Source: a virus. From it: DNA of 64,000 nucleotides. The notes beneath the pieces are model-generated. The model ran no database searches. It saw only the letters and a list, made by a program, of their open reading frames with translations, and was not told the DNA's origin. Below, in pieces: positions 87 to 16,122 of the stretch; positions within the stretch are counted from its first letter, which is position 1; each line of letters begins with the position of its first letter. The stretch covers positions 1 through 64,000 of IMG/VR virus record IMGVR_UViG_3300025137_005412; one strand, given 5' to 3'. A program made the translations under genes and the position numbers.

Positions 87-104
87 TGTGGTATAATCTA
101 CCTA

Positions 105-971: not shown

Positions 972-1750
972 TACAACCACGTCCATCACCAAAGATGGAT
1001 AGAATATTTGCTGCACTACAGGAAGGTTGGCCTAAAGCTAACATAAATGATGGTATGGCAAAACAATATGTTCTATGGGGATTGATAGGTGAAAATCCTA
1101 GAATAATGCAATCAGATCCATACATATTTTGTGATATGCCTTATAACGGTAGATACAATCCAAAAAATGAAGATTGGGATAATACATTTTGGAGATGGTG
1201 TTTTAATAGTTTACATGATCATAGAAGATTAAATGTACCTGCAGATAGATTTTTAGCATGGGAAAATTATGAAGTAAAACCATGGGATACAAGTGGTGAA
1301 CATATATTAATATGTCCATCTTCACAGACAATGACACACTACATGACTGGTAAGACAGTTGAACAATGGGTACAAGAAGTAGTTGACTATGTATCAGAAC
1401 AAACAAACAGACCTATAAAATTAAGATTAAAACCAAGACGTAATGGTACATCTGGACCAGCAGCTCGGCCAAAAAGAAGTATTGAAGAAGATTTAGAGAA
1501 CGCTTATTGTGTTATTACTGAAGGTTCATTAACATCAATTGATGCATTGAAAGCCGGTGTACCTGTAATATCTACTAACAAAAAGTTTGCACCATCTGCT
1601 TGGTGTAGCAACTCTTTACATCAAATAAATAATATAAAACTATATGATAGAGAACAGCTATTTTATAATCTAGCTTATAAACAATACTCTATTAAAGAAA
1701 TGCGCGAAGGAATTTGTTATGAAAATAGTAAGCTATACCTCGTCAATTAA
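944..1750 (+). CDS. KpsS-like glycosyltransferase (paralog 2)
   Basis: KPW...ILICP, RLKP, SLTSIDALKAGVP, LAYKQYS pattern shared with neighbours; AAGGAG RBS favours ATG at 944 over 911. Confidence 0.55.
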   Translation: MEITERTSLIQPRPSPKMDRIFAALQEGWPKANINDGMAKQYVLWGLIGENPRIMQSDPYIFCDMPYNGRYNPKNEDWDNTFWRWCFNSLHDHRRLNVPADRFLAWENYEVKPWDTSGEHILICPSSQTMTHYMTGKTVEQWVQEVVDYVSEQTNRPIKLRLKPRRNGTSGPAARPKRSIEEDLENAYCVITEGSLTSIDALKAGVPVISTNKKFAPSAWCSNSLHQINNIKLYDREQLFYNLAYKQYSIKEMREGICYENSKLYLVN

Positions 1751-2693
1751 AGCGAGTAAGAGGCTAAACGCCCACAATCCAATCACATCCGCCTTAGATG
1801 CAATAGTGTCTGCTGCAAATAATTCTAAAGGTGAATTTGTAGCATATAAACATGAAGGTACTAATACAGTAGGAGGTGATGTAGGATTTTGTTTTGGTTC
1901 ATATACACAGAGAAAACTTGAAGTTGAAAGAGCGGTATTAATTAGAAATATTGAAGCTGCAAAACAACCATGCTTTTTTCTAGATTCAGCAGCATTCTCA
2001 ACACACATTAGAAACTCACTTAATAGTAGTGAAACATTTATGTTTAGGCTTGGTCTTAATTCATGTACTGGTGAAGGTGTATTTTGGAATAGACCATTAC
2101 CATCTGAAAGATATGATGCTATGAAAAAGCAATTTAACTTTACAGAAAAGGATCCACAAAATAATGTCACAGGACCAATTGTATTTCTTGCACAAACAGA
2201 AACAGGTTGGCAGTTTGATGATTTAGAACCATACTATAAGTTTGCTAATAAGACACTTAAAGAGATAAGAGAACATACAGATAGAAAAATTATCTATAGA
2301 ACACATCCAAAATTAGATCCAAGATCACCATTAGAAAAATGTATTGAAGGTATTGAAAATCTTGAAGTACATAATTGTCCAGTATCAAGACGAACACTAT
2401 TTGAATCATTAGACGGTGCTTATGCCGTCGTAACTCACAGCTCATCAGGTGCACTAGAAGCGGTGCTTGAAGGATTACCTACATTTGCAATGAGTCCAAG
2501 AACATTTGGTTCTCCAATGTATCTTACAGACATAAGTAAAATAGGAAATGCATTCCATGAATTCGCTTGGAATGAAAGACAACAATGGCTATATAACCTT
2601 GCGTATACATCTTGGAGTGTAGAAGAACTGAAAACTATTGAGGTTCTAAGGTATTATACTAATATGCTCAAAGGAATAGAAAATGAAAAATAA
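1719..2693 (+). CDS. KpsS-like glycosyltransferase (paralog 3)
   Basis: [32 protein letters not shown] motifs. Confidence 0.6.
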
Positions 2694-3708
2694 GAAGGCA
2701 ATTATTACGGGTATTACTGGACAGGATGGTCCATATCTTGCTGATCTTTTATTAGAAAATGGTTATGAAGTTCATGCTATTAGAAGAAGAGGTGCAACAG
2801 ATAATACTACAAGAATTAAACACATATTAGACCATGAAAATTTTTGGCTACACTATGGTGATCTTACTGATTCATCAAGTTTAGTTAAGATTGTGAATAT
2901 GGTTCAACCAGATGAAATTTATAACTTAGGTGCAATGTCACATGTAAGAATATCTTTTGATATTCCTGAATACACTGGAGATACTGGTGGTTTAGGCGTG
3001 ACTAGAATGCTTGAAGCTATACGATCAGCTGGTTTAGAAAAGACATGTAAATTTTATCAAGCATCAACATCTGAGCTATACGGAAAAGTAGTTGAAACAC
3101 CACAAACTGAAACAACACCATTTTGGCCAAGATCGCCTTATGGTGTTGCTAAGTTATATGCTTATTGGATTGTAAGAAACTATAGAGAATCGTATGGTAT
3201 GTTTGCAGCTAATGGTATCTTATTCAATCATGAATCACCTAAACGAGGTGATGATTTTGTGACACAAAAGATTGTTAAAGGTGCAGTAGATATATCTTAT
3301 GGTGATCAAAAGAAACTTACGCTTGGTAATTTAGATGCACAAAGAGATTGGGGACATGCAAAAGATTATGTAAAAGGTATGTGGTTAATGATGCAACAAG
3401 ATAAACCTGAAGATTATGTATTAGCTACTGGCGAAATACATTCAGTTAGAGAATGTTGTGAGTATGTATTTAAAAAATTAGGAATGCCATTAAGATGGGT
3501 AGGCAAAGGTATCGAAGAAAAAGGATACTCAGGCGATAAACTTATGATTGATTGTAGTGAAGAATTCTATAGACCAGCTGAAGTACAATTACTACATGGT
3601 GATTCTACAAAGGCTCAAGAAGAATTAGGTTGGGAATTTGAACACGATTTTTATTCACTTATGAATGATATGATTGATTCAGCATTAATGAAACATTTAG
3701 TAAAATGA
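2683..3708 (+). CDS. gmd: GDP-mannose 4,6-dehydratase
   Basis: [44 protein letters not shown]. Confidence 0.97.
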
Positions 3709-4892
3709 CAATAAAATATCCTTTAAGCTGCGATACTTGGAATAACCAAGAAATCGGAGCAATCAATAGAGTTATGAGAAATGGCCGTTATACTATGGGT
3801 CCAGAAGTTGTTAAGTTTGAAGAAGAGTTTGCTGGATATATGGGTGTAAACCATGCAAGAATGGTAAACAGTGGTTCATCAGCAAATTTACTTATGATTG
3901 CTTCAGCAATATTCTCACCTGAATATGATTTAAAAGCTGGTGATAAAGTTATTGTACCATCAGTATCTTGGTCAACTACATATTATCCATTACAACAGTA
4001 TGGTTTAGAACTTGTATTTGTAGATGTAGATCTATACACTCTTAATTTATGTCCTACAAAGACTGCTCAGGCACTCGAGGAAATTGAAGGTATCAAGGCA
4101 ATATTAACTGTAAACTTACTTGGTAATCCATCACAGATTGATGAATTAAAAGACCTAGCAGACAACTATAGTATACTTTTATTTGAAGATAATTGCGAAT
4201 CATTTGGTTCAAGTTTTGAAGGTAAAATGATGGGTACTTATGGTTCTATGGGTACACATTCATTCTTCTTTAGTCATCATCTTCAAACTATGGAAGGTGG
4301 TATGATACTTACTAATTCTGAAGAGACTGCTCAATACATTGACTCTCTTAGAGCTCATGGATGGTTAAGAACTTTACCTGATAAGAATTTTATTCATGAT
4401 AAAACAGGTGATCCATTTGAAGATAGCTTTAGATTTGTATTACCAGGTTATAGTGTAAGACCACTTGAAATGAGTGGTGCTATTGGTCAAGTACAACTTG
4501 CTAAATGGCCTGAAATGATGAAGCAAAGAGTAAAGAATGCTGAGTATTTTAAATGGAAGTTTGAAACTTTACCTATCATCATACAAAAAGAAATTGGTAT
4601 ATCATCGTGGTTTGGATTCTCATGTATAGTACCACATATAATTGGTAGAAAAAAATTCACAGATGCATTACAAGAAGGTGGTGTAGAGATCAGACCGATT
4701 GTAGCAGGTAATTTTTTAAGAAATCCAGTTATGAAACATATTGACCATCAGATAAGTGGTACTATGGAAAATGCAGATACTATTCATGATCAAGGATTCT
4801 TTTTAGGAAATGATTCAGAAGATATTAGAGAAAAAATAGATCATGCTTATAATATTATCAATGCAGTAATTCTTGACGGAGGTATGGAATGA
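3705..4892 (+). CDS. colD: PLP-dependent DegT-family enzyme, ColD-type GDP-4-keto-6-deoxymannose 3-dehydratase
   Basis: [28 protein letters not shown] (His instead of Schiff-base Lys); follows gmd. Confidence 0.8.
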
Positions 4893-5647
4893 GTAAATAT
4901 TCAGTAGTAATGACATTAGGTCCACACAATTGGAAACAATATGGTTCTAAATCTGTAGAAGCTTTTGACAAATATTGGCCTAAAGATATTAATCTATATG
5001 TTTATTTTGAAGGTACACCACCAGACTTTTCTTCTGAAAGAGTACATTTCTTAGATTACAATGCAGAAATACCAGAACATAAAAAATTCATGGAAAGAAA
5101 TAAAGACAGGCATCCACACGTTAATGATGTGCATGTAAATAACATCACACACCAGGCAAGTAAATTTGCTTTTAAAGTATATGCACAATTACAAGAATTA
5201 GATTCACCAAAAACTAGATATGTAATTTATCTTGATGGTGATAACGTGACTATGAAAGATATAAAAGAGGATCTATTAGCAAAATTAGTAAATGATGAAG
5301 TATACTTATCTTTTGTAAACAGAATGCCTGCAAAATATACTGAAACAAGTATTATGATATGGGATACAGAGAACGAATACCACGCAGAATGGTGTAAGAC
5401 ATATCGATCTATGTATGATGATGATAATATATTTCAATATCCAGCTTGGCACGATTGTATTGCATTTGACGAGACAACATTTCCCATGATTAAAGCAAAG
5501 AAAATTAAAGCAATTGACTTAGGCTTTGGTGCACCATCTAAACATCCACTCGTTGTTGGACCATTAGGTGAATACTTTGACCATTTAAAAGGTCCATCAA
5601 GAAAACAATTAGGTTATTCTAAGGAAAGAAAGCATGCAGGATTTTAA
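4889..5647 (+). CDS. GT-A-fold glycosyltransferase
   Basis: KFAFKVYA, YLDGD (DxD), WHDC, DHLKG. Confidence 0.65.
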   Translation: MSKYSVVMTLGPHNWKQYGSKSVEAFDKYWPKDINLYVYFEGTPPDFSSERVHFLDYNAEIPEHKKFMERNKDRHPHVNDVHVNNITHQASKFAFKVYAQLQELDSPKTRYVIYLDGDNVTMKDIKEDLLAKLVNDEVYLSFVNRMPAKYTETSIMIWDTENEYHAEWCKTYRSMYDDDNIFQYPAWHDCIAFDETTFPMIKAKKIKAIDLGFGAPSKHPLVVGPLGEYFDHLKGPSRKQLGYSKERKHAGF

Positions 5648-6302
5648 AGTCTTTATTGGTTATGATTCAAGAGAAGATATAGCTTATCAGGTTTGTAGGC
5701 ATTCTATACTTAAACATAATCCCGATGTAGAAGTAGTACCACTTAAATTACATGAATTAAGAGAACAAGGTTTTTATACTAGAGCTGATGATAAGAAAGG
5801 TTCTACAGAATTTACTATTTCAAGATTCTTATGTCCAGCACTCATGAATTATCATGGATATGCTTTATTTATGGATTGTGATATGATAGTTCAAGCAGAT
5901 GTAAAACATATATTTAAAGAAGCATGTGGTGAGTTTGATTTATCTTGTGTACAGCATGATTATAATCCAAAAAGCATGACAAAGATGGATGGTAAGATGC
6001 AACATGCATATCCAAGAAAAAACTGGTCAAGTGTTATGTTGTTTAATAATGAAAAATGTACAGATCTTACACCAGAATTAGTAAATACAGAAACACCACT
6101 TTATCTACATAGAATGTTATGGGCAGAAAAAGTTGGTAAATTAAATCATAAATGGAATCATCTAATTGGTTATTATGAAAAACCAGAAGATGCTTTGATT
6201 GTACATTATACAGATGGTGGTCCATGGTTTGAGAACTATAGAAACTGTGAATATGCCGATGTATGGAAACAACATGTAAAAGAATGGTTAGAACTTGATT
6301 AA
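5634..6302 (+). CDS. GT8-like glycosyltransferase
   Basis: FIGYDSRE, STEFTISRF, FMDCD, YPRKNWSS, HYTDGGPWF. Confidence 0.8.
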   Translation: MQDFKVFIGYDSREDIAYQVCRHSILKHNPDVEVVPLKLHELREQGFYTRADDKKGSTEFTISRFLCPALMNYHGYALFMDCDMIVQADVKHIFKEACGEFDLSCVQHDYNPKSMTKMDGKMQHAYPRKNWSSVMLFNNEKCTDLTPELVNTETPLYLHRMLWAEKVGKLNHKWNHLIGYYEKPEDALIVHYTDGGPWFENYRNCEYADVWKQHVKEWLELD

Positions 6303-6996
6303 TGTAGTTTGCGTAAATTGGGGTACTAAGTATCCTAAATCATATACAGAACGATTGTACAATATGGTCAAGCGTAATACAACACGTGACTTTAATTTCT
6401 ATGTGTTAACAGATCAACACATTTATAAAGAACCAATAAAGACAATTGAACTAAAATCTGGTATGACCGGTTGGTGGAATAAACTTCAGATGTTTGATAG
6501 AGAAGTAATGCCAGAAGGTGAGTATCTATACTTTGATTTAGATGTAGTAATAGTAGATAATATTGATTGCTTCTTTGATTCACCAAAGTTTGGTATACTA
6601 AGAGATTTTATTAGACCTGATGATGGTTTACTTCCTGGTAAAGAGTATAATTCATCAATATTAAGGTTCAATAATTTTGAATATTCCTCAATCTATGAGT
6701 ATTATCTATCTAATAAGCAGGTATTTCATGGTATGCAAAAACAAATTAACTTCTTTGGTGATCAAAATGTTATCAGTAGTTATTTTAATGCTTATCCCGA
6801 TTACGTTAAGCCATTCCCAGATGAATGGTCATGGTCTTATAAAAAAGGAGTTGTACGAGGTGCCACTGCAGGAGATCGAAGTGAAATGTTTGGAAGAAAA
6901 ATTCCTGATGGCGGGAAGATCTGTGTATTCCACGGAGAACCTAATCCTGAACAGGTGCTGGACAAACATGATTGGATAAAGGAGAACTATAAATGA
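6295..6996 (+). CDS. GT8-like glycosyltransferase
   Basis: WGTKY, GWWNKL, YFDLD, NSS, GDQ, FHGEPNP. Confidence 0.75.
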   Translation: MINVVCVNWGTKYPKSYTERLYNMVKRNTTRDFNFYVLTDQHIYKEPIKTIELKSGMTGWWNKLQMFDREVMPEGEYLYFDLDVVIVDNIDCFFDSPKFGILRDFIRPDDGLLPGKEYNSSILRFNNFEYSSIYEYYLSNKQVFHGMQKQINFFGDQNVISSYFNAYPDYVKPFPDEWSWSYKKGVVRGATAGDRSEMFGRKIPDGGKICVFHGEPNPEQVLDKHDWIKENYK

Positions 6997-7199
6997 ACCA
7001 ATTAAATGAAGAGATGGTGCAAGCCTTAGCACTTAAATTTGAAGGTCTTAAACAAGCACACATTGTAAATGTTAAAACGCTTTTACATAATGGTGTAGGT
7101 GTAGCTGAGCATCCTGATAGTGTATTAACTGTTGAAGGTGAAATTGCAAAGGTTGCAGAATATGATGATAAGCTTGAAGCACTTAAAAAATATTTCTAA
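6993..7199 (+). CDS. small conserved T4-like phage hypothetical protein
   Basis: GVAEHPD...YDDKL pattern; coupled to neighbours. Confidence 0.6.
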   Translation: MNQLNEEMVQALALKFEGLKQAHIVNVKTLLHNGVGVAEHPDSVLTVEGEIAKVAEYDDKLEALKKYF

Positions 7200-8053
7200 T
7201 GGCATTTGAAAATAAAAAGATTTGTATAACGGGTCACACTAAAGGTGTTGGCAAGGCTATTAAAGATAGGCTTGAAGCTAATCACTATACAGTTGTTGGT
7301 GGTTCAAGATCTAATGGTGTAAATGTAGGTAAAGCTAAATCAGTAATTAATTGGGTACTTTCTGAAAACCCTGATATCTTTATTAATAATGTATATTGGC
7401 CTGATTCACAAGCAAAGATTTGTTATCAACTTTATAATAAATGGCAAAGTGAAAAGAAACATATTATCAATATGAGTTCTACTAGCGGTATGGCTCATAC
7501 TAATTTTAGTGAAATGGCAAATAGTGATATCACTAGATCATTTTATAACGAGTTCTGGGGACCATACGTATCAGAAAAAAATAGATTAGAATTTATTAGT
7601 AAACAATTAGCTCATAAATTTAGTAGAAGATTTCCATGTAAGGTCACAGCTTTAATGCCTGGATTTGTAGATACTAATGCAGTTGCTTTATTCAAACCAG
7701 TATTTACACCTGAAAGTTTCTTAACTGCTGAAGAAGTTGCTCAACAAGTTCATTGGCTTATTGAACAACCTGATCATATTCAAGTTCAATCATTAGCTTT
7801 TGGTACATACTTTGAAATATCACAAGCAGCAGCAAGACAAAGATTAAAAGACTTTGATAATATGGTAGAGAATCAACAAAACAATGCTTATGGCCTTGAT
7901 GAAGAAGCAGTTGAAGCGGGTAAAGAAGGTAGAGGAGCATTAAAGAAACTTATTAATGAAAGAATCTATAAGACTACAGCAGAAGCAAGTAGAAAAGTGA
8001 AAGATTCAGTTGAACAATTAAGTCAGGAGTCATTCGATGGCAAAGACGAATAG
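7199..8053 (+). CDS. short-chain dehydrogenase/reductase
   Basis: ITGHTKGVG, DIFINN, IINMSS, YVSEK (YxxxK), PGFVDT. Confidence 0.85.
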   Translation: MAFENKKICITGHTKGVGKAIKDRLEANHYTVVGGSRSNGVNVGKAKSVINWVLSENPDIFINNVYWPDSQAKICYQLYNKWQSEKKHIINMSSTSGMAHTNFSEMANSDITRSFYNEFWGPYVSEKNRLEFISKQLAHKFSRRFPCKVTALMPGFVDTNAVALFKPVFTPESFLTAEEVAQQVHWLIEQPDHIQVQSLAFGTYFEISQAAARQRLKDFDNMVENQQNNAYGLDEEAVEAGKEGRGALKKLINERIYKTTAEASRKVKDSVEQLSQESFDGKDE

Positions 8054-9281
8054 ATTAGCCGTAACTGGTGTTGCTATTGCAGATTGTATGGGCGATGATG
8101 GTATTGAAAATAATTTCAATAGATATATGGCAAATGATACATCTCATCCGATGGATATTGAGAATATCAAACAATCAATTACTGAAAAAGGTTTACTAAG
8201 AAAAGCACTTACTAAATATTATGATAGATCATCAATGGCTATTATTGATCTTGTTGATAAAGCTATTAATATGGCAGACTTAGATGTCAAGTCAGATACT
8301 GAAGCACCTATCATGACTGGTACAACAAGAGGTCCTATTACTTCTACACTTGAATACTTTAAACAATATTGGTTTGAGAAATGGAAAGAAGAATTTGAAA
8401 CAGATCCAACAAAGAAACAAGAAATCTATGCAGGTCTAATTAAAAAGTTTCAAAGAATGAATCCATATTTTCTTTTAAATGTAAATGTAGATTTTATTCA
8501 AACACAATTAAGTGCTCATTACGGTATCAATGGTCCAGTATTTCAATCAGCAGCAACATGTAGTAGTGGTATTTACCTATTAGATATTGCTAAGGCTTAT
8601 TTAGATAGAGGTAATAAGTATGCTATTCTTACCGGTTATGAACAACTTGATGCTCATGAATTAACAAGATGGTTCTTTATGTCATTAGGTGCAGCAGCTC
8701 CTAGCGGTGTTTGTAGACCATTTGATAATAATAGAGACGGTACAGTATTAAAGAATTCGTATGCAGCTATGATTGTAGAACGAGAAGATGAAGCTAAGAA
8801 AAGAGGTGCAACAATCTTAGCTTATGTTGAAGATGTAAGAAATAGAAATGATGCCGGTCATGCATTAGCACCAGCTGAAGATGGTAAAGCATATCGCATT
8901 GCATTGGAATCCTTAATGAAAGACAAAGACATTACGTATGATGATATTGATTACGTAAATGCGCACGCCACAGGTACTCCAAAAGGTGATGAGATAGAAC
9001 TTAATACACTTAAAGATTATCTTAAAAAAGATACAGTAGTTTCTGCATTGAAAGGTCATATTGGCCACGCTATGGGTGCGTGTTCTTTAGCAGAAATGAC
9101 ATATACTATTATGATGATGAATAAAGGTATTGCTTTACATACGGCACATTTAACCGATCCATGTGATGATTACTTTAATCTTATTACAGAACCAAAAGAA
9201 ATGGAAATTAAGTATGCACTTAAGAATAGTTTTGGTTTTGGTGGTAGATCTTCCGTGGCATTACTATCGAAAGCAGATTAA
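8037..9281 (+). CDS. fabF: beta-ketoacyl-ACP synthase (FabF/KAS II-like)
   Basis: ATCSSG (catalytic Cys), CRPFD, NAHATGTPKGD, KGHIGHAMGA, KNSFGFGG. Confidence 0.85.
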   Translation: MAKTNRLAVTGVAIADCMGDDGIENNFNRYMANDTSHPMDIENIKQSITEKGLLRKALTKYYDRSSMAIIDLVDKAINMADLDVKSDTEAPIMTGTTRGPITSTLEYFKQYWFEKWKEEFETDPTKKQEIYAGLIKKFQRMNPYFLLNVNVDFIQTQLSAHYGINGPVFQSAATCSSGIYLLDIAKAYLDRGNKYAILTGYEQLDAHELTRWFFMSLGAAAPSGVCRPFDNNRDGTVLKNSYAAMIVEREDEAKKRGATILAYVEDVRNRNDAGHALAPAEDGKAYRIALESLMKDKDITYDDIDYVNAHATGTPKGDEIELNTLKDYLKKDTVVSALKGHIGHAMGACSLAEMTYTIMMMNKGIALHTAHLTDPCDDYFNLITEPKEMEIKYALKNSFGFGGRSSVALLSKAD

Positions 9282-10324
9282 TGGAACTTATAAAACACGA
9301 TCATTATGCAGAATTAAAGGTTGATTCACCTGATAATGATAAAGATATAATTGAATTAGGTCTAGCATGTAGAGAATACTTGTTAGACCACCAAGTTTTA
9401 GTACTTAAAAAACAGAATGTTGATTCAGTATACTATTCTAAGTTGTGTCATTCAATAGCAAAGAGTGGTATATACAATTGGAGACAATGTTCATGGACTC
9501 CTGATGGTGAGTTATTTAGTATGGGTGAACAACTCATGGCAAATGTGGGTTATACATCAAAAGAAGCTTCTAATATAGAGATGCCTAAATCAGGTCCATT
9601 AAATCAAATAAAACCTACATCATCATTACAAGATAAGAATCATGAATATTTAGATCCATTTGAATTTAAAGAATTTAACTCATATCCAGTACAACGAGTG
9701 ACTGGTGAACAGAAAGGAAAATACGGTGGTGGTATATTTGGTACTGGCGACTTGGATTGGCATTGCAATCTTGGAGGTTATCACGAGGCTGATGGCGTAG
9801 CGCTACAAGGAATTAAAGATGTGGAAGGTGCTTCAACCTTCTTTGCAAATAGTGTACCTGCTTTAAGAGATATGCCTGATAATTTATTAGGTCAAATACA
9901 AGATAGAAAAGCACACTTCAAATTTGATCATAAGAAATGGTCAGACGTAAAGAAGATGCATCCCATGCAGAGAATTACTATGCAACTCTTATATCTTAAT
10001 AATAAGAGAGCAGAAATGGATTTGTATATCATACAAGAAAATCTAAAGAAGATTAAAGGTATATACTTTCATAGACTTAACAATATGGATATTGATGGAG
10101 ATGATGGTACATTAGTAAAGGCTTTATATGACCACATGTTTCAAGAACAATATGTATATGAACACGAGTGGGAAGTTGGAGATATAGTTCTAATGGACCA
10201 ATTAATTACACAACATAAAAGAGAATTTGTAGAACCAACTCTCTTAGAGAAAAGAGTACTACACAGACTTACATTTATGTTGAACAACGATGATGACTAT
10301 GTCTACAATTATAACAACACTTGA
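9281..10324 (+). CDS. TauD/TfdA-like Fe(II)/2OG dioxygenase (H-x-N variant)
   Basis: LDWHCN, TFFAN, HEWEVGDIVLMDQLITQHKR, RVLHR. Confidence 0.8.
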   Translation: MELIKHDHYAELKVDSPDNDKDIIELGLACREYLLDHQVLVLKKQNVDSVYYSKLCHSIAKSGIYNWRQCSWTPDGELFSMGEQLMANVGYTSKEASNIEMPKSGPLNQIKPTSSLQDKNHEYLDPFEFKEFNSYPVQRVTGEQKGKYGGGIFGTGDLDWHCNLGGYHEADGVALQGIKDVEGASTFFANSVPALRDMPDNLLGQIQDRKAHFKFDHKKWSDVKKMHPMQRITMQLLYLNNKRAEMDLYIIQENLKKIKGIYFHRLNNMDIDGDDGTLVKALYDHMFQEQYVYEHEWEVGDIVLMDQLITQHKREFVEPTLLEKRVLHRLTFMLNNDDDYVYNYNNT

Positions 10325-11270
10325 TACTGACATTACTAACATGGTCGATCCAGACTATGATAGAATTAAAAGATCAGTTGAAACTGATGGTATAGTATTA
10401 ATAAAAAAACAAAATACTAATCCAATACACTTCAGTAAAATCATAAGCAAAATATGGGGTATTGATAACTACAGATTCCTAGCATGGAATACTGATGGTT
10501 CATCTGCTAAGAATGCAATAGCAGCATTCACACAAAAACAAATGCCAAATCCAAATGCTGGTGATTATTGGGGACACGATGATTTTAGAGACAATGATGA
10601 TTATCCAGATCCATTTAATTTTCCAGCACATAAAACATATCCAGTACAACGTGTGACAGGAGAAAAGAGAGAAGGTAAGTGGACAGGAATATTCCAACTA
10701 GGTAAATTAGATTGGCATTGTAATTTAAACCAATTACATGGTGCAGATGGTGTAGCATTACAATCAATTCGAGGTTGTGAGAATACACCGACATTATTTA
10801 TGAATACAATTCCAGCATTAAAAGAAATGCCAGAAGATTTAAGAAAGAAAATAGAAGGTAGATATGCAACCTACATTTATGACTATGAAAAATGGGGTAA
10901 GGTTATGTCAAAAGAACAAGCAATGGTGTTTAAACTTGCTGGAAAGAAACCATTTAAGTTGTGGTTGATTCAGGAAAATGCTGGTGGTACTAAAGGTATC
11001 TATTGGCATAAGTTTAATCACATGCAAATCAATGATGATGAAGGACATAAGCTACGAGATGAATTAGAAGAATACTTATTTCAAGATAAGTATATCTACA
11101 CACATAATTGGGAGGTAGGTGATGTCATAATAATGGATCAATTACTAACTCAACACAAGAGAGTACCCGAAAAAGATGAGGTACTAGAAAATAGAGTTCT
11201 ACATAGGTTATCATTTAGGTTAACAAACCGAGGTGTACCGAGAGCTCTTGAATTGGCTAACCGGATATAA
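10290..11270 (+). CDS. TauD/TfdA-like Fe(II)/2OG dioxygenase, tandem paralog
   Basis: YPVQRVTGE, LDWHCN, HNWEVGDVIIMDQLLTQHKR, RVLHR shared with upstream gene. Confidence 0.8.
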   Translation: MMTMSTIITTLDTDITNMVDPDYDRIKRSVETDGIVLIKKQNTNPIHFSKIISKIWGIDNYRFLAWNTDGSSAKNAIAAFTQKQMPNPNAGDYWGHDDFRDNDDYPDPFNFPAHKTYPVQRVTGEKREGKWTGIFQLGKLDWHCNLNQLHGADGVALQSIRGCENTPTLFMNTIPALKEMPEDLRKKIEGRYATYIYDYEKWGKVMSKEQAMVFKLAGKKPFKLWLIQENAGGTKGIYWHKFNHMQINDDEGHKLRDELEEYLFQDKYIYTHNWEVGDVIIMDQLLTQHKRVPEKDEVLENRVLHRLSFRLTNRGVPRALELANRI

Positions 11271-11273
11271 ATA
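11266..11273 (+). promoter_or_regulatory. T4-type late promoter TATAAATA
   Basis: Exact gp55 consensus upstream of 11305 ORF. Confidence 0.7.
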
Positions 11274-11304
11274 CAGTATCCAAATAAACAAAGGAGAAAA
11301 ATAT

Positions 11305-11505
11305 ATGGAATCGATTAAAGAAATTGTAATGATGGGAGTAGACTGGGTAAAAGACAGACTATCTGAGAGAACATCTTGGGATGGTATTGTACTTATTGCT
11401 ATTGGAAGTTTAATTCTTATCGCATCTCCATTGACTAAAATTGCAGCACTTATCGCAATTGGTTATGGAGCATTTACTATCTTAAAAGATGAAGGTGTAT
11501 TTTAA
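11305..11505 (+). CDS. small membrane protein
   Basis: AAGGAG RBS before ATG 11305; ERTSWDG then two hydrophobic segments. Confidence 0.7.
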   Translation: MESIKEIVMMGVDWVKDRLSERTSWDGIVLIAIGSLILIASPLTKIAALIAIGYGAFTILKDEGVF

Positions 11506-11511
11506 TTATTT

Positions 11512-11531
11512 GGGGTAGCTTCGGCTACCCC
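11512..11531 (+). terminator. GC-rich cUUCGg hairpin (terminator or RNA stabiliser)
   Basis: GGGGTAGC-TTCG-GCTACCCC, 8-bp stem; weak U-tract. Confidence 0.7.
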
Positions 11532-11547
11532 TACTTGCGAGATTAAT

Positions 11548-11859
11548 ATGATAAGAGATTGGGGATACTGGGAAGTACTCAACGAAGGTAAAAACTACAA
11601 AGTCAAAAAACTGGTAATTCTACCAGATAAATCACTATCAATGCAGAAACACTATAAGAGAGCCGAGTATTGGACTCTGGTCAAGGGTGAGTGTTATGTA
11701 GAGAATGAATATGGTGTATCTACCAAACTTATACCATTTAAAGTATATCACATACCCGTGCAGGCATGGCACAAGGCATATAATAATGGATATGAAGAAG
11801 CCGAGGTCATAGAGATATGGGAAGGTGAATCTGACGAAAACGATATAGAAAGGTCCTAG
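11548..11859 (+). CDS. cupin, mannose-6-phosphate isomerase type II C-terminal-like
   Basis: RDWGYWEVL, SLSMQKHYKRAEYW, EENDIER-like end. Confidence 0.8.
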   Translation: MIRDWGYWEVLNEGKNYKVKKLVILPDKSLSMQKHYKRAEYWTLVKGECYVENEYGVSTKLIPFKVYHIPVQAWHKAYNNGYEEAEVIEIWEGESDENDIERS

Positions 11860-12030
11860 AAGCTGTGTTTTGCTCGAGACAGCCTTCCAAAGCATGATCC
11901 GAGCACCATCTCGAGGCTGTTAAAATAAGGATTCTCACATATATATCATAATGTATAGTTATTAGTAAATAGAGCAAAAAGCACCAAATATCACACCATG
12001 CTGCTTTTTTTTGATTATTTTAAAAAAAAC

Positions 12031-12051
12031 TCGCTTATAGAGTATAATATT
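12031..12051 (+). promoter_or_regulatory. putative promoter TCGCTT-N3-GAGTATAATATT (copy 1)
   Basis: 19/21 identical to 51306-51326; contains TATAAT. Confidence 0.55.
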
Positions 12052-12093
12052 TATGTATCATTAAAAATCATAGCAAAAACAGGAGGATAATAT

Positions 12094-13032
12094 ATGGCAC
12101 ATCAAGTAGAAACAATGGCGTATGCAGGTGAATTACCATGGCATGGTCTTGGAGTTAAGGTCAACGATGACCTTTCACCAGCTGAAATACAAAGAGAAGC
12201 TGGATTAGAATGGGAAGTTGAAAAAATTCCTATGTTTGCAAGGTCTGGTGAATCTGAAATAAAGATTCCTAATCAGACTGCGCTGGTCCGTGAATCGGAT
12301 AATAAAGTCTTATCAATTGTAGGTGATAACTGGGAGCCAGTACAAAACAGTACAGCTTTTGAGTTCTTCACAGACTTTGTAAAACAAGGTAAAATGAAAA
12401 TGCACACAGCAGGTTCATTACTTGACGGTAAGATGGTATGGGCATTAGCTAAAGTAGAAGATGACTTTGAACTATTCAATGGTGACAAAGTAGAATCTTA
12501 TTTACTTTTCTCTAACCCACACCAATATGGTAAATCTATTGATGTTAGATTTTCACCAATCAGAGTTGTATGCAATAATACATTGACAATGGCTCTTGGT
12601 GGTAAATCTGGTGTCACACTAGATCACCGTAAAGCTTTTGATTCTCAAACAGTTCAACAAACTATGGGACTGGCACATGAGTCAATGGACGAATACAAAG
12701 AAGTTGCAGAATTTCTTGGTTCTAAACGTTATACTAAAGATACATTGAATCAGTACTTCTCTGATGTCTTTGGTAAATCATCCAAATCAGATGACAATGA
12801 GCTTATACTTACTCGTAATGGTAATAAAGCTCTTGATATTATCGACACCCAACCAGGTGCTGATTTTCAACGAGGTTCATTCTGGCAAGCACTGAATGCA
12901 GTGACTTACTTAGCTGATCATGAATTAGCTAATACCAGAGACATGAGAATGTATGCCTCTTGGTTTGGAGCAAATCGTGTTAAAAAGATTAATGCGGTTA
13001 AAAAAGCTGTAGAATATGCAAAAGCTGCATAA
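12094..13032 (+). CDS. DUF932/DUF945-family phage protein
   Basis: PWHGLG, TAGSL..GK.VW, PIRVVCNNT, NAVTY..DH; GGAGG RBS. Confidence 0.85.
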   Translation: MAHQVETMAYAGELPWHGLGVKVNDDLSPAEIQREAGLEWEVEKIPMFARSGESEIKIPNQTALVRESDNKVLSIVGDNWEPVQNSTAFEFFTDFVKQGKMKMHTAGSLLDGKMVWALAKVEDDFELFNGDKVESYLLFSNPHQYGKSIDVRFSPIRVVCNNTLTMALGGKSGVTLDHRKAFDSQTVQQTMGLAHESMDEYKEVAEFLGSKRYTKDTLNQYFSDVFGKSSKSDDNELILTRNGNKALDIIDTQPGADFQRGSFWQALNAVTYLADHELANTRDMRMYASWFGANRVKKINAVKKAVEYAKAA

Positions 13033-13909
13033 CACTAAAGCTTTAACCCTAGATAGCGTGGCCATAGAGCCACGCTACTCTACAATATTAAAGTCAGACA
13101 AAATAGATTTGGAGATCAATGAAAGACCTCCAATATGGGCATCTTCTGATCCTGCTACAGGAACAATGGAGATAGCAAAAATTTTATCAGCATCAAAATT
13201 AGGTACATTATTACATACAAATTATGACATAGATTCTTTATACGATTTCTTCTTTGAAGAAAAACCTTATGTTGCATTATCCATTGGTGACACTGAAGGT
13301 CAATTACAAAAATGGAATAAACTAAAAAGTAAGTTGCCTGCAGGTAATATAAAGTATGTGAACTTAGAGACAAACAATGCACATAGTATAGAGTATCTTT
13401 ATAAGGTAGCTAAATTTAAAGAGGAGAATGAAAATGTCAGAATCATCGCAGGACCCGTTTCAGATGAAACAGCCACAAGGAAACTTTTCGAAGTGGGTGC
13501 AGAAATTACAAGGATTGGATTTGATGCTCGTTTCGATAACGAAAATTTTATGGAGACTGGTGTTGGTAGTCCTCACGCTAGTGTTCTTCTTAGTAATGGT
13601 GAAATTGCTAGGGAGCATAATGGGTATATCATGGCTTCTGGATTCTATCCTGATGCAGCTGACATTGCCAAGTGTATAGCTTGCGGAGCTTCATCAGTAG
13701 AGATATCTAATATGTTCTTTGGTCATGATGAATGTGCTGGTGCTACACATGCGGACAAAGGTACAATGACTAAGAATGGTGTAGTGTTCAGAGGTAAAAT
13801 TATAAATACAGTATATTCGATTCTACATATTTTAGAGAAATCATGTAGACAAGCAGGCTTTAAATCATTAACTAAATTTAGAGATGAAGCCAAGCTAGTT
13901 ATCATTTAA
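13016..13909 (+). CDS. GMP reductase/IMPDH-like TIM barrel, catalytic Cys absent
   Basis: DSVAIEPRYS, NAHS, IIAGPV, TGVGSP, DIAKCIACGA, MFFGHDEC; GPGSVCTTR loop replaced. Confidence 0.7.
   Translation: MQKLHNTKALTLDSVAIEPRYSTILKSDKIDLEINERPPIWASSDPATGTMEIAKILSASKLGTLLHTNYDIDSLYDFFFEEKPYVALSIGDTEGQLQKWNKLKSKLPAGNIKYVNLETNNAHSIEYLYKVAKFKEENENVRIIAGPVSDETATRKLFEVGAEITRIGFDARFDNENFMETGVGSPHASVLLSNGEIAREHNGYIMASGFYPDAADIAKCIACGASSVEISNMFFGHDECAGATHADKGTMTKNGVVFRGKIINTVYSILHILEKSCRQAGFKSLTKFRDEAKLVII
13054..13077 (+). terminator. 9-bp hairpin just past the DUF932 stop, inside next gene
   Basis: TAGCGTGGC-CATAGA-GCCACGCTA. Confidence 0.5.
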
Positions 13910-13917
13910 TATAAATA
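13910..13917 (+). promoter_or_regulatory. T4-type late promoter TATAAATA
   Basis: Exact consensus in intergenic region. Confidence 0.65.
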
Positions 13918-14018
13918 TAGTATACAAAACAGTTGGTACACTGCTTATAAAACAACCGCAAAGCTACTAAATTAAATTTAACTTCATTATTTTAAATCAT
14001 TTTATAAGAGATATTAAC

Positions 14019-14207
14019 ATGGGATTATACGAAAGCCTTTTCATAACAACAATGATTACCTTTATTGGTTTTCTGGCATGGCGTGTTTATCTCATCGAAA
14101 CAAATCACCTTACACATATTGAAAAAGCCATCACCGAAATACAAACCGATATGAAATGGCTTATCAAATTTCATCAAGAAGAAAAATCCCCCAAGAAAAA
14201 AAAATAA
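14019..14207 (+). CDS. small membrane-anchored protein
   Basis: N-terminal hydrophobic helix, NHLTHI, basic C-terminus. Confidence 0.6.
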   Translation: MGLYESLFITTMITFIGFLAWRVYLIETNHLTHIEKAITEIQTDMKWLIKFHQEEKSPKKKK

Positions 14208-14240
14208 GATCGTAGTATAATCTCTATACAAGGAGATTTT

Positions 14241-15464
14241 ATGGCACTATCTAAAAAACGGTCTAAGAATGCGGCTCTGTTAAAGGAGCTACGCAACCCT
14301 ACAGAACCAATTGCACCTACTCAATTAGAACTTGACAAATGGTCAGGCTACGAATATCAACGGCATAAAAGAAATGCTGAGGATTGGTATCGCATGGAAA
14401 AAGGCAAGAAAGATATGAAAGCCTATGTCATGGAATATGTAAAGAATACCAGACCTGATCAATATAAGATTATAAAGAACAATGTTGAATGGAGATTTGG
14501 TGCAGTCACAGGTTATTCATGTCGTATGCAAACAAAAGGCTGGCCAGATTATCATAAGAAAGAAGCAGATTATTGGAAAACTCTTGGTGGTACAATTGGA
14601 GAAATGAAACCAATTAGTGTTTACATCAATAGAAGACTAGATGAATTATATGACAATGGTCTTAAAGAACAGGTAGATGAAGATGAAGATGATAAACCAA
14701 CTGTTATACGTAAATCACCTATAGAACTATATAAAGAAAAAGTTTGGAACACTGTCATGACAGATCTTATTAAGATGGAAGATGATTGGATTGATGGTAA
14801 ACAAACAACATTGAATATTTATGATCTGTATCAGAAATATGGTCTTACTTCTAAAGCCAATGTAATTGTAGAAGAACAAATTAATAAGTGGCATGAAGAG
14901 TATACTGAATTATTAAAAGTAAGAAAGATTAAAGATCGTACTGATTGGGACGAGCAACTCGTTGAAGGTTATTCTCATCTTACAGATAAAGAAGCTAAGT
15001 TTAGAGTAAAGTCTTTAGATAATATTAAAGCTGATCTTGAAAGTATTAAAAAGTCTACACAAACACAGCGTAAGTCAAGAGTTAAGAAAGCACCATCAGC
15101 TGAAAGGCAAGTTAAGAATCTTAATTATGAACCAGAGAATCGTGACTTTAAAGTAGTATCATTAAATCCTGAACAGATTATTGGTACTCATAGATTATTA
15201 GTCTTCAGTACAAAATATCAAAGACTTGAAGAATATCTTTCAGATCGAGTAGATGGTTTTGAAATCAAAGGTCAAGCATTACAACATATTGATAAGATGA
15301 GAGGTAAGAAGCTTCGAAAGCCTTTAGAATTCTTGCCAATCGCGCTATCAAAGACTGAGCGACAGTTTGATAAAGAATATGAAAAACTGACTACTAAGGA
15401 GTATAAACCTAATGGAAGGTTCAATAAAGCTCTCATTATTTTAAGAGCTGAGAAAAGGAGATAA
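14241..15464 (+). CDS. conserved T4-like hypothetical protein
   Basis: 407 aa; AAGGAG RBS; LVEGYSHL, KKLRKP, NGRFN motifs. Confidence 0.7.
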   Translation: MALSKKRSKNAALLKELRNPTEPIAPTQLELDKWSGYEYQRHKRNAEDWYRMEKGKKDMKAYVMEYVKNTRPDQYKIIKNNVEWRFGAVTGYSCRMQTKGWPDYHKKEADYWKTLGGTIGEMKPISVYINRRLDELYDNGLKEQVDEDEDDKPTVIRKSPIELYKEKVWNTVMTDLIKMEDDWIDGKQTTLNIYDLYQKYGLTSKANVIVEEQINKWHEEYTELLKVRKIKDRTDWDEQLVEGYSHLTDKEAKFRVKSLDNIKADLESIKKSTQTQRKSRVKKAPSAERQVKNLNYEPENRDFKVVSLNPEQIIGTHRLLVFSTKYQRLEEYLSDRVDGFEIKGQALQHIDKMRGKKLRKPLEFLPIALSKTERQFDKEYEKLTTKEYKPNGRFNKALIILRAEKRR

Positions 15465-15465
15465 T

Positions 15466-16122
15466 ATGAAAATAAGTAAACGTACATTATCAATACTAAA
15501 AAACTTTGCGACTATAAATCAGTCCATTGTTATTAATGAAGGTAATGTCATTGAAACAATATCAAATGTAAAAGATATATTTGCTAAAGCCGAAGTTGAT
15601 GAAACATTCGATAAGGAATTTGCAATTTATGATTTAAACGAGTTCTTAGGTACTATATCTCTATTTGATTTAGATGCTGACTTTAAGTTTGGTGATGATT
15701 CAGTTATTATCTCTGATGGTACTGCACAACAAAAATACTTCTATGCAGATAAAAGTATAGTTGCAACACCACCTGAAAAAGGTATCACCTTACCATCTGT
15801 TGAAGTTGAAAAGAATATTACTAAAGAAGATCTAACTAGATTAGCTAAAGCAGCTTCAATTAATAATGCTTCAGATATTACGTTTACAGAAGCAGGTATA
15901 CTTGTCCATGATAAAACAATACCTACATCAAATAAATTTACTATCAGTCAGAAAGAAAAAGGTTCTGCCAAATATAATCTATCAATCTCAGTAGATAAAC
16001 TTAAGTTTATTCTTGATGATTACAAAATATCTATTTGTGCTAAAGGATTATCTTTATTTTCTGGTGCCAGTGGTATTGATTACTTTGTAGCACTACAACC
16101 TGATGGTGAATATGGCAATTGA
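15466..16122 (+). CDS. gp45: sliding clamp
   Basis: MKISKRTLSILKNFATINQSI, FAIYDLNEFL, YFVALQPD. Confidence 0.95.
   Translation: MKISKRTLSILKNFATINQSIVINEGNVIETISNVKDIFAKAEVDETFDKEFAIYDLNEFLGTISLFDLDADFKFGDDSVIISDGTAQQKYFYADKSIVATPPEKGITLPSVEVEKNITKEDLTRLAKAASINNASDITFTEAGILVHDKTIPTSNKFTISQKEKGSAKYNLSISVDKLKFILDDYKISICAKGLSLFSGASGIDYFVALQPDGEYGN

What the first reader, a model, noticed from the sequence alone, without database searches (positions are those of the whole stretch)
7199..11270. Phage-encoded SDR - ketosynthase - twin TauD cassette: candidate acyl/secondary-metabolite tailoring system
Seen: four translationally coupled genes (SDR, FabF-like with intact Cys-His-His, two TauD-like paralogs) continuing directly from six glycosyltransferases and sugar genes. 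The KS has a shortened N-terminus and a charged insertion (EYFKQYWFEKWKEEFETD...) near the substrate-pocket region. No ACP seen, so host ACP is presumably used. Inference: a mini type II FAS/PKS that builds an oxidised acyl group or glycolipid for virion decoration, host-membrane remodelling or signalling. I know of no characterised phage system with this layout.
Basis: partly seen in the sequence, partly recalled or inferred. Interest (0 to 1): 0.85.

Follow-up and report, generated by a model that had tools for sequence, protein, structure and literature searches.

The report
Phage ketosynthase with odd TauD oxygenases

Summary
The four ORFs are real, intact and overlapping. So are all 12 junctions from 105 to 11270, so the coupling does not delimit a cassette. 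The KS is a FabF-fold enzyme with Cys-His-His-Lys intact (model pLDDT 92, TM 0.84 to FabF). It belongs to a virus-specific clade and carries a 23-residue helical insertion. The 152-kb record has no ACP.

Both TauD paralogs have Asn in place of the iron-binding Asp (HxN). This state is conserved across most of a largely viral family that includes cultured phages P-HM1 and Mosig.

Outside the window's narrow clade the four genes do not travel together:
- The SDR family is stand-alone in 68 of 80 viral loci.
- HxN-TauD is not significantly enriched near the KS (p = 0.12).
- The KS's recurrent partner is a delta-9-type desaturase (15 of 39 loci vs 5 of 78; p = 3.5e-5), plus FabI in one lineage.
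- The sister clade has three desaturases where the TauDs sit.

The upstream "DegT" gene is ColD.

Best reading: a host-ACP-dependent lipid-remodelling auxiliary gene with clade-specific oxygenases. fabF plus desaturase in pelagimyophages is published (PMC7029224). This scan noted the same cassette, and KS-desaturase cassettes, on other DNA.

The parts
6993..7199 (+). 68-aa ORF directly upstream of the SDR; a common phage small protein, not an ACP
   Evidence: Full-length match to phrog_1811, function unknown. No PP-binding hit. The only candidate Ser is Thr in the L011 homolog.
7199..8053 (+). Diverged classical-type SDR (284 aa) with a charged C-terminal extension of about 80 aa; member of a large virus-specific family
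   Evidence: TGxxxGxG, NNxY, Ser94 and YxxxK are kept. adh_short scores 23.8 bits, below the cut-off. Weak match to phrog_3142 'FabG-like'. Atlas clusters are 97-100% viral. At least 275 IMG/VR stretches exist, and 68 of 80 sampled loci hold no KS, FAD, TauD, GMD or ColD.
8037..9281 (+). FabF-like beta-ketoacyl synthase (414 aa) of a virus-specific clade
   Evidence: Pfam ketoacyl-synt N and C domains. Family profile against FabF structures, E about 1e-75 over the full length. AF2 pLDDT 92 and pTM 0.92. Foldseek TM 0.80-0.84 to FabF. Cys175 (8559-8561), His310 (8964-8966), Lys339 and His344 (9066-9068) are invariant. Below the NCBIfam fabF cut-off, 178 vs 494 bits. The viral clade is separated from cellular FabF by a branch with support 100.
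8367..8435 (+). Clade-specific 23-residue charged insertion in the KS (about residues 111-133)
   Evidence: Present only in the window clade and the P0020/L005 clade. It lies between the FabF 'GIGGL' loop and the 'PRKxSPFF' segment. It is modelled as part of two long helices, 101-119 and 124-138.
9281..10324 (+). TauD-family paralog 1 (347 aa), H161-C-N163 variant
   Evidence: Pfam TauD 58.4 bits. 'dWHcN' aligns to CarC 'fHaD'. The motif is at 9761-9769.
10290..11270 (+). TauD-family paralog 2 (326 aa), H143-C-N145 variant, with distal His289, Thr168 and Arg302 kept
   Evidence: Pfam TauD 65.2 bits. The family profile aligns 'DWHcN' to E. coli TauD 'NWHTD' and TfdA 'LWHSD'. AF2 pLDDT 87. Nearest folds are ScoE/Rv0097, TauD, AAD/TfdA and AtsK. 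The motif is at 10716-10724.
11266..11273 (+). T4-type late-promoter consensus TATAAATA at the TauD2 stop codon
   Evidence: It is the only occurrence in 1-13800. It may start a separate transcript for the small membrane-protein gene and the cupin (inference).
11305..11505 (+). 66-aa predicted membrane protein conserved downstream of the TauDs in the clade
   Evidence: Hydrophobic core sequence. It is cluster c20 in the syntenic loci.
11548..11859 (+). Small cupin (mannose-6-phosphate isomerase C-terminal type)
   Evidence: Pfam MannoseP_isomer, 6.7e-19. Present only in the clade that also has ColD, the SDR and the TauDs.
2683..4892 (+). Context: GDP-mannose 4,6-dehydratase plus ColD (3-dehydratase), a GDP-3,6-dideoxyhexose route without a recognisable ColC
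   Evidence: GDP_Man_Dehyd, 1e-136. ColD/WbdK, E = 5e-117, with 'SHH' over ColD's catalytic His.

Best explanation
The stretch is part of the auxiliary-gene island of an uncultured marine T4-like myovirus (no psbA; DNA polymerase only about 41% identical to cultured cyanomyoviruses). It holds members of three virus-specific enzyme families rather than one dedicated four-step pathway.

The central gene is a FabF-type elongating condensing enzyme. Its Cys-His-His-Lys catalytic set is shown here. By inference, it loads an acyl chain on Cys175 and condenses it with malonyl-ACP borrowed from the host, because the phage record encodes no carrier protein. That would shift the chain length or flux of host fatty-acid synthesis during infection.

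Across the viral KS family the recurrent neighbour is a membrane delta-9-type desaturase, and in one lineage also FabI. The family's role is therefore most likely remodelling of host membrane fatty acids (inferred).

In the window's clade the desaturases of the sister clade are replaced by two TauD-family paralogs. These keep the 2-oxoglutarate-binding Thr and Arg and both His ligands but have Asn instead of the iron-binding Asp. They most likely still use O2 and 2-oxoglutarate to oxidise an anionic substrate with an alkyl chain, possibly a fatty acid or lipid. This step is the least certain.

The SDR is a widespread stand-alone phage gene. Its role as the KS's ketoreductase is possible but not supported by co-occurrence.
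For: - KS competence and fold.
- No ACP in the 152-kb record. Two complete KS-bearing viral genomes also lack one, and two other genomes carry one about 50 kb from the KS.
- The viral KS clade is separated from cellular FabF (support 100), and the window clade is sister (support 100) to the FAD-partnered L005-L008 clade at the same locus.
- FAD is present in 15 of 39 KS-centred IMG/VR loci and adjacent in 14, against 5 of 78 background loci (odds ratio 9.1, p = 3.5e-5). After dereplication, 6 of 16 groups hold it.
- The partner genes carry the delta-9-type His boxes HRxxxH, HxxHH and HxxHH.
- FabI (E = 3e-63) lies in the L009 KS cluster.
- KS-FAD modules occur without sugar genes.
- The HxN register is fixed against TauD, TfdA and CarC.
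- Asn is conserved in 164 of about 210 family representatives, while Thr, His and Arg are kept.
- The nearest folds act on anionic alkyl or aryl substrates.
- Human AspH is an active Fe/2OG hydroxylase without a carboxylate ligand (abstracts of PMC13168262 and PMC10915816).
- Published note of fabF plus stearoyl-CoA desaturase in freshwater pelagimyophages (PMC7029224), and of cyanophage vFADs (PMC5776448).
Against: - No biochemical or expression data exist for any of these genes.
- HxN-TauD is not significantly enriched near the KS (7 of 39 vs 6 of 78, p = 0.12) and is adjacent only in the window's group. It also occurs alone in other viral genomes. The KS-TauD link could therefore be accidental placement in a hypervariable slot.
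- Earlier notes report at least seven oxygenase-like genes in this window, which raises the chance of accidental adjacency. Only one more was confirmed by Pfam.
- Loci used in the Fisher tests are phylogenetically non-independent.
- Delta-9 acyl-lipid desaturases do not act on ACP-bound intermediates, so even the KS-FAD link is physiological rather than a shared intermediate.
- The Asn variant may be inactive as an oxygenase.
Confidence: 0.5

Rival explanations
1. SDR, KS and the two TauDs form one dedicated pathway that builds an oxidised acyl group on host ACP. The product is attached to the glycan made by the upstream genes (a glycolipid or acylated glycan for the virion or the host surface).
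For: The four genes are syntenic with the sugar genes in all close relatives. All junctions overlap. No late promoter lies inside 1-11265. One distant locus (L030) has an SDR homolog (32% identity, E = 4e-23) right after KS-FAD-FAD. The scan noted the same cassette in another genome.
Against: Co-occurrence is limited to one narrow clade (KS at least 84% identical). The sister clade keeps the KS and most sugar genes but has no SDR and no TauDs. The SDR is stand-alone in 68 of 80 loci. TauD is not enriched near the KS. KS-oxygenase pairs elsewhere lack sugar genes. No acyltransferase, ACP or thioesterase is recognisable.
Confidence: 0.15
2. The SDR and the small cupin belong to the sugar route. 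After GMD and ColD they replace the missing ColC (4-reduction and epimerisation) to finish a GDP-3,6-dideoxyhexose. The TauDs modify that sugar or its acceptor, and the KS is an unrelated neighbour.
For: ColD is certain and no ColC is recognisable. ColD, the SDR, the cupin and the TauDs are all present in the window clade and all absent in the sister clade. RmlD_sub_bind gives a weak hit on the SDR N-terminus.
Against: Only 2 of 80 SDR-family loci hold ColD or GMD, and both are the window's own clade. The SDR is a classical-type enzyme, not an extended GDP-fucose-synthase-type one like ColC (motifs). The cupin follows a late-promoter motif and may be on another transcript. The TauD fold neighbours are not sugar-nucleotide enzymes.
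Confidence: 0.1
3. The genes are functionally unlinked auxiliary genes that happen to sit in one hypervariable island. The KS boosts host fatty-acid synthesis. The HxN-TauDs do something unrelated to lipids, such as organosulfonate or sulfate-ester scavenging, 2-oxoglutarate drawdown, or a non-oxidative role.
For: Each family has its own independent distribution. These islands mix radical-SAM enzymes, deformylase, oxygenases and bilin genes. Sullivan et al. proposed that cyanophage 2OG oxygenases modulate 2OG levels (PMC3037559). The fold neighbours include TauD and AtsK.
Against: The KS-desaturase pairing is strongly non-random, so at least the KS has a preferred oxygenase-type partner. The TauD pair occupies exactly the slot of the desaturases in the sister clade. 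The score against the taurine dioxygenase equivalog is far below cut-off, 25.8 vs 313 bits.
Confidence: 0.25

Closest known systems
Bacterial FabF (KAS II) of type II fatty-acid synthesis
   Same: Same fold over the full length (TM 0.80-0.84). Same Cys-His-His-Lys catalytic set and GFGG loop. Profile E about 1e-75.
   Different: Only about 22-25% identity to solved FabFs and about 32% over two-thirds of the protein to database FabFs. Below the NCBIfam fabF cut-off. Forms a separate virus-only clade. Carries a 23-residue helical insertion next to pocket-lining segments. No cognate ACP is encoded.
fabF plus stearoyl-CoA desaturase genes of freshwater pelagimyophages (PMP-D; Zaragoza-Solas et al. 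2020, PMC7029224) and cyanophage vFADs (Roitman et al. 2017, PMC5776448)
   Same: Same viral KS family. The freshwater KS-FAD-FAD loci with speD-like neighbours (L009, L029-L040) fall in the same clade. Same presumed purpose, host lipid remodelling.
   Different: The window's clade has no desaturase near the KS. It has two HxN TauD-family genes and an SDR instead, embedded in a GMD/ColD glycan cluster. The published mentions are annotations in one sentence; no function was tested.
TauD/TfdA/AtsK/ScoE group of Fe(II)/2-oxoglutarate dioxygenases
   Same: Pfam TauD above cut-off. Same fold. The proximal and distal His and the 2OG-binding Thr and Arg are conserved.
   Different: The carboxylate of the facial triad is Asn throughout the clade. 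No characterised member with HxN was found. The family is almost wholly viral. Scores against the taurine dioxygenase and ScoE equivalogs are far below cut-off.
Carboxylate-less Fe/2OG enzymes: human AspH (2-His site) and Fe/2OG halogenases (HxA/G)
   Same: They lack the Asp/Glu ligand yet are active (AspH: abstracts of PMC13168262 and PMC10915816; halogenases: own knowledge). Rare HxG and HxA members occur in this very family.
   Different: The residue here is Asn, which could itself ligate iron through its amide oxygen. The fold subgroup is different (TauD-type, not AspH-type). No halide or substrate data exist.
'Taurine catabolism dioxygenase' of Prochlorococcus phages P-HM1/P-HM2 and Pelagibacter phage Mosig
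   Same: Same HxN family. P-HM1 reads 'WHSN' and Mosig 'WHSN', at 25-29% identity. They sit in oxygenase-rich islands. P-HM1/2 also encode an ACP and an ACPS (PMC3037559).
   Different: Single copy, not adjacent to a KS. In P-HM1 the ACP lies about 16 kb away.

Membership tests
FabF / KAS II (elongating beta-ketoacyl-ACP synthase) | Thiolase-fold KS with N- and C-terminal ketoacyl-synt domains | tested here: met
   Pfam PF00109 and PF02801. AF2 pLDDT 92. Foldseek TM 0.80-0.84 to FabF.
FabF / KAS II (elongating beta-ketoacyl-ACP synthase) | Cys-His-His triad plus catalytic Lys and the GFGG gating loop | tested here: met
   C175, H310, K339, H344 and F401-G-G are invariant in 39 sequences.
FabF / KAS II (elongating beta-ketoacyl-ACP synthase) | Scores as a fabF equivalog and groups with cellular FabF | tested here: not met
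   TIGR03150 scores 178 bits against a cut-off of 494. The viral clade is split from cellular FabF with support 100.
FabF / KAS II (elongating beta-ketoacyl-ACP synthase) | Condenses acyl-ACP with malonyl-ACP | not testable with these tools
   Needs an enzyme assay. No ACP is encoded in the phage record.
Type II polyketide synthase (minimal PKS) | KS-alpha paired with a CLF (KS-beta), a dedicated ACP, and cyclases or ketoreductases | tested here: not met
   A single KS, no second KS-like ORF and no PP-binding domain. The top fold matches are FAS FabF, not KS/CLF.
TauD/TfdA family Fe(II)/2OG dioxygenases (PF02668) | Pfam family membership and the jelly-roll (DSBH) fold | tested here: met
   58.4 and 65.2 bits against a cut-off of 27. 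Model pLDDT 87, with TauD, ScoE, AAD and AtsK as the top folds.
TauD/TfdA family Fe(II)/2OG dioxygenases (PF02668) | 2-His-1-carboxylate facial triad (HxD/E...H) | tested here: not met
   H-C-N in both paralogs, aligned to TauD H99/D101, TfdA and CarC. HxN in 164 of about 210 relatives.
TauD/TfdA family Fe(II)/2OG dioxygenases (PF02668) | 2OG C5-carboxylate binding by a conserved Thr and Arg | tested here: met
   T168 and R302 are invariant or near-invariant.
Taurine dioxygenase proper (TauD equivalog) | Equivalog-level similarity | tested here: not met
   NF007104 scores 25.8 bits against a cut-off of 313, for paralog 1 only.
Fe/2OG halogenases | Carboxylate replaced by Ala or Gly (HxA/G) to open a halide site | tested here: not met
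   The residue is Asn. HxG and HxA occur only in 5 rare relatives.
Classical SDR / FabG-like ketoacyl-ACP reductase | TGxxxGxG cofactor motif and a Ser...YxxxK catalytic set | tested here: met
   Motifs are present and aligned to solved SDRs.
Classical SDR / FabG-like ketoacyl-ACP reductase | Family-level score, FabG equivalog status, and genomic association with a KS | tested here: not met
   adh_short 23.8 bits, below 26.6. FabG models score about 19 bits against cut-offs of 273-332. A KS is present in only 2 of 80 SDR-family loci.
GDP-colitose pathway (Gmd, ColD, ColC) | Gmd, plus ColD with the catalytic His in place of the PLP Lys | tested here: met
   GDP_Man_Dehyd, 1e-136. ColD, 5e-117, with aligned 'SHH'.
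GDP-colitose pathway (Gmd, ColD, ColC) | ColC (GDP-L-colitose synthase, an extended SDR) | tested here: not met
   No Epimerase or GDP-fucose-synthase-type ORF besides Gmd in 1-16000. The rest of the 152-kb record was not searched for it.

The most novel reading that the evidence does not exclude
The virus-specific HxN TauD proteins are a new mechanistic class of Fe/2OG enzyme. Either Asn is a neutral iron ligand, or the substrate's own carboxylate completes the iron site. In this phage clade the pair would work on the product of the viral ketosynthase to make hydroxylated or otherwise oxidised fatty acids, replacing the di-iron desaturases used by sister phages. That would be a soluble, 2-oxoglutarate-driven route to remodel host lipids.
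Probability: 0.12. Interest if true: 0.8.

Novelty: new variant of a known kind. Interest (0 to 1): 0.5.

Why it matters
Lipid-directed auxiliary genes of marine phages are poorly understood, and none of these three families has been tested.

If the reading holds, abundant ocean myoviruses (Tara contigs of about 160 kb carry the same cassette) reprogram host fatty-acid chain length and oxidation state with their own diverged enzymes. That would bear on membrane physiology of infected cells and on marine lipid pools.

Separately, the HxN TauD family is a large, conserved, almost purely viral group that breaks the defining metal-binding rule of its superfamily. It has cultured representatives (P-HM1/P-HM2 on Prochlorococcus MED4; Mosig on Pelagibacter HTCC1062), so the question of what a 2-His-1-Asn site does is directly testable.

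The negative result also matters. Tight packing and overlapping stop/start codons in T4-like phage islands are not evidence of a shared pathway.

Tried and rejected
1. ACP candidates. The 68-aa ORF (phrog_1811; its Ser is not conserved), the 75-aa ORF between KS and TauD in relatives, and small ORFs next to the KS in L005, L009 and L026 give no PP-binding signal.
2. Nucleotide similarity to cultured phages: none. KS tblastn hits in 'phages' are weak, and many look like bacterial fabB/fabF genes in poorly annotated records.
3. SDR as the KS's dedicated reductase, or as a ColC substitute. Both were rejected as general rules by the neighbourhood survey. One supporting instance, L030, remains.
4. 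There is no Capsule_synth hit in the genome, no Pfam hit at E <= 0.01 for two of the three, and no PDB hit for the family profile. Unresolved.
5. Cyanophage host: no psbA/psbD in the 85%-complete record. Host unknown.
7. Sigma-70 promoter and terminator scans: counts are at the chance level and uninformative.
9. Literature searches for an HxN Fe/2OG enzyme and for a characterised phage KS found none in the searchable library. This is not proof of absence.

Full report
OBSERVATION. The window comes from a 152-kb IMG/VR virus record. It is a T4-like myovirus: a gp45 clamp lies at 15466-16122 and clamp loader, ThyX and dCMP deaminase are present in syntenic relatives. GC content is 32-35%. The DNA polymerase is at most about 41% identical to any cultured phage, the best hits being cyanomyoviruses, and there is no psbA.

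However, every one of the 12 junctions between 105 and 11270 overlaps. The coupling is a property of the whole 11-kb block and does not mark out a four-gene unit. There is no T4-type late-promoter consensus inside 1-11265. One sits exactly at the TauD2 stop (11266-11273), ahead of a 66-aa membrane protein gene and a small cupin.

THE KETOSYNTHASE. P0003 has both KS Pfam domains. As a single sequence it aligns to FabF only from residue about 136. A profile of viral homologs aligns to FabF structures over the full length at E about 1e-75, so the N-terminal third is diverged, not missing. Relative to FabF there is a deletion of about 9 residues near residue 50 and a 23-residue charged insertion (residues 111-133). 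That insertion is shared only with the sister clade.

An AlphaFold model built on 39 sequences is very confident (pLDDT 92, pTM 0.92). It places the insertion inside two long helices, 101-119 and 124-138. Every top structural match is a FAS-II FabF (TM 0.80-0.84), not a PKS KS/CLF or a FabH-type enzyme. Cys175, His310, Lys339, His344 and the GFGG loop are invariant. From knowledge of FabF structures, the insertion lies between two segments that line the acyl pocket and the dimer interface, so altered primer or chain-length preference is plausible but untested.

The protein scores far below the NCBIfam fabF equivalog cut-off (178 vs 494 bits) and matches no PHROG family.

NO CARRIER PROTEIN. 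The record has no PP-binding domain. The 68-aa ORF just upstream is a common phage protein (phrog_1811), and its only candidate Ser is Thr in a relative. Of five other large KS-bearing viral genomes, two encode an ACP about 50 kb from the KS and three encode none, including both complete genomes. Dependence on the host ACP is therefore the reasonable inference.

THE TAUD PARALOGS. Both pass the Pfam TauD threshold and are 38% identical to each other. In both, the motif that should be HxD reads H-C-N. The register is secure:
- phmmer aligns 'dWHcN' to CarC 'fHaD'.
- A 35-sequence family profile aligns it to E. coli TauD 'NWHTD' and TfdA 'LWHSD'. The distal 'HKR' and 'RVLHR' fall on TauD's His255 and Arg266 region (ligand numbering from my own knowledge).

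An exhaustive profile search found 132 cluster representatives at E <= 1e-30 and 866 at E <= 1e-10. Among the roughly 210 sequences aligned that cover the motif, 164 have HxN, 39 HxD, 3 HxG, 2 HxA, 2 HxH, 1 HxS and 1 HxE. The Thr, distal His and Arg are kept throughout. Asn is therefore a derived state under strong conservation, which is not what decay looks like.

The TauD2 model (pLDDT 87) is closest to ScoE/SfaA/MmaE/Rv0097, TauD, the aryloxyalkanoate dioxygenases and AtsK. All of these act on small anionic substrates with an alkyl or aryl chain. The nearest Atlas clusters are 96-100% viral. Cultured phages carry the same variant: P-HM1 'WHSN' and Pelagibacter phage Mosig 'WHSN'. Human AspH shows that an Fe/2OG hydroxylase can work without a carboxylate ligand (abstracts found). 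I found no characterised HxN enzyme.

THE SDR. P0002 keeps TGxxxGxG, NNxY, a conserved Ser and YxxxK but is below the adh_short gathering score. It belongs to a large, essentially viral family: Atlas clusters of up to 477 members and at least 275 stretches in IMG/VR. The window clade adds a charged C-terminal extension of about 80 residues.

DO THE FOUR GENES TRAVEL TOGETHER? Close relatives (KS 84-96% identical) include Tara Oceans contigs of 137-165 kb. They show the same order, sometimes with an extra 75-aa ORF between the KS and TauD1. Beyond that clade they do not travel together.

I collected 39 KS-bearing IMG/VR loci with a profile, called and clustered their ORFs, and built a KS tree. 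The results:
- All viral KS sequences but one form a group split from cellular FabF by a fully supported long branch.
- The window clade is sister (support 100) to the L005-L008 clade at the same genomic locus (GMD upstream, DUF932 and IMPDH-like downstream). There the KS is followed by three desaturase-like genes, and there is no SDR, TauD, ColD or cupin.
- Desaturase-like genes with delta-9-type His boxes lie next to the KS in five of 16 dereplicated KS groups and within the locus in a sixth.
- At the locus level FAD is present in 15 of 39 loci against 5 of 78 background loci (odds ratio 9.1, p = 3.5e-5; loci are not independent).
- One lineage adds a clear FabI (E = 3e-63).
- Other KS loci sit among heme oxygenase, bilin reductase and SAM decarboxylase genes, which are typical auxiliary-gene islands.
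- HxN-TauD lies within the locus in 7 of 39 KS loci against 6 of 78 background loci (p = 0.12) and is adjacent only in the window's group. It is a lone gene in other large viral genomes.
- The SDR family has none of KS, FAD, TauD, GMD or ColD within 7 kb in 68 of 80 loci, including its nearest non-syntenic relatives at 51-53% identity. Its usual neighbours are radical-SAM enzymes, peptide deformylase, other 2OG oxygenases and a GH6 hydrolase.
- One distant locus (L030) does have an SDR homolog (32% identity, E = 4e-23) right after KS-FAD-FAD.

THE SUGAR CONTEXT. GMD is certain. The 'DegT' gene is ColD (E = 5e-117 to E. coli WbdK, with 'SHH' over the catalytic His). The upstream route therefore leads to a GDP-3,6-dideoxyhexose, not to perosamine, and no ColC is recognisable. 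That makes the SDR and the cupin formal candidates for the missing reduction and epimerisation. The survey does not support a general SDR-ColD link: only 2 of 80 loci hold both, and both belong to the window's own clade.

Only three of the six upstream ORFs show any glycosyltransferase signal, and it is weak. The three tandem paralogs match neither Capsule_synth nor any PDB chain. KS-oxygenase modules in other lineages lack sugar genes altogether, which argues against a necessary KS-glycan link.

INTERPRETATION. The best-supported picture has four parts:
- The KS belongs to a virus-specific FabF-type family that works with host ACP.
- The family-wide association of the KS is with membrane desaturases (and FabI), pointing to remodelling of host fatty acids.
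- In the window's clade that oxygenase slot is filled by two carboxylate-less TauD-family enzymes of unknown substrate.
- The SDR is a stand-alone phage gene.

I give this 0.5.

WHAT IS KNOWN. fabF and fabG appear in viromic AMG lists (PMC10653327). fabF plus stearoyl-CoA desaturase were noted in one sentence for freshwater pelagimyophages (PMC7029224); my freshwater KS-FAD-FAD loci with speD-like neighbours look like the same group. Cyanophage desaturases have been studied (PMC5776448). P-HM1/P-HM2 were reported to carry a taurine dioxygenase, an ACP and an ACPS (PMC3037559).

This scan had already noted the same SDR-KS-TauD-TauD cassette on another genome, and KS-desaturase (with or without ACP/AcpS) cassettes on several others. 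I found no description of three things: the monophyly of the viral KS family, the TauD-for-desaturase swap, or the conserved HxN site. The finding is therefore a new variant of a known kind (lipid-directed phage auxiliary genes). The HxN oxygenase family is its most interesting open question.

Noticed in passing
window 3705-4892: The DegT-family gene is a ColD-type GDP-4-keto-6-deoxymannose 3-dehydratase (E = 5e-117 to E. coli WbdK, with 'SHH' in place of the PLP lysine). With Gmd it gives a phage colitose-type route that lacks a recognisable ColC.
   Followed up: partly
L003, L004, L011-L014 (e.g. L011:11236-11463): A 75-aa ORF with no family match is inserted between the KS and TauD1 in some close relatives. 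It is absent from the window and from L001.
   Followed up: partly
L042, L044, L045: In these large viral contigs the KS is surrounded by five or more desaturase-like paralogs interleaved with unknown genes of 126-260 aa.
   Followed up: no
L034-L038 (e.g. L037:8844-9392, L038:10044-10709): In a cyanophage-like lineage the viral KS sits directly before heme oxygenase and two bilin-reductase-like genes. Two of these genomes (G002, G003) encode an ACP about 50 kb away.
   Followed up: partly
L009:10922-11674: A freshwater phage KS cluster contains a clear enoyl-ACP reductase FabI (E = 3e-63), together with desaturases and a 93-aa unknown ORF.
   Followed up: partly
No Capsule_synth (KpsS/KpsC) domain was found anywhere in the record.
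   Followed up: partly
window 105-2693: Three tandem paralogs (288, 279 and 324 aa) are conserved in the clade and in the sister clade. They have no PDB match as a profile, and only the third gives weak Epimerase_2 and DUF6716 signals. Their function is unresolved.
   Followed up: partly
window 7199-8053 (C-terminal ~80 residues, about 7830-8053): The SDR of the window clade carries a charged, probably helical C-terminal extension of about 80 aa. It is absent from the roughly 185-aa core typical of the viral SDR family.
   Followed up: no
L019 (86-kb contig): An HxN-TauD homolog sits in a contig that also encodes an RNA_pol_Rpb6-like protein and several HNH endonucleases. This may be a different type of large virus.
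   Followed up: no
window 45191-45892 and 29186-29977 (-): A UDP-glucose/GDP-mannose dehydrogenase central domain (1e-14) and an Asp/Asn beta-hydroxylase-like gene (1e-16) lie elsewhere in the window.
   Followed up: partly
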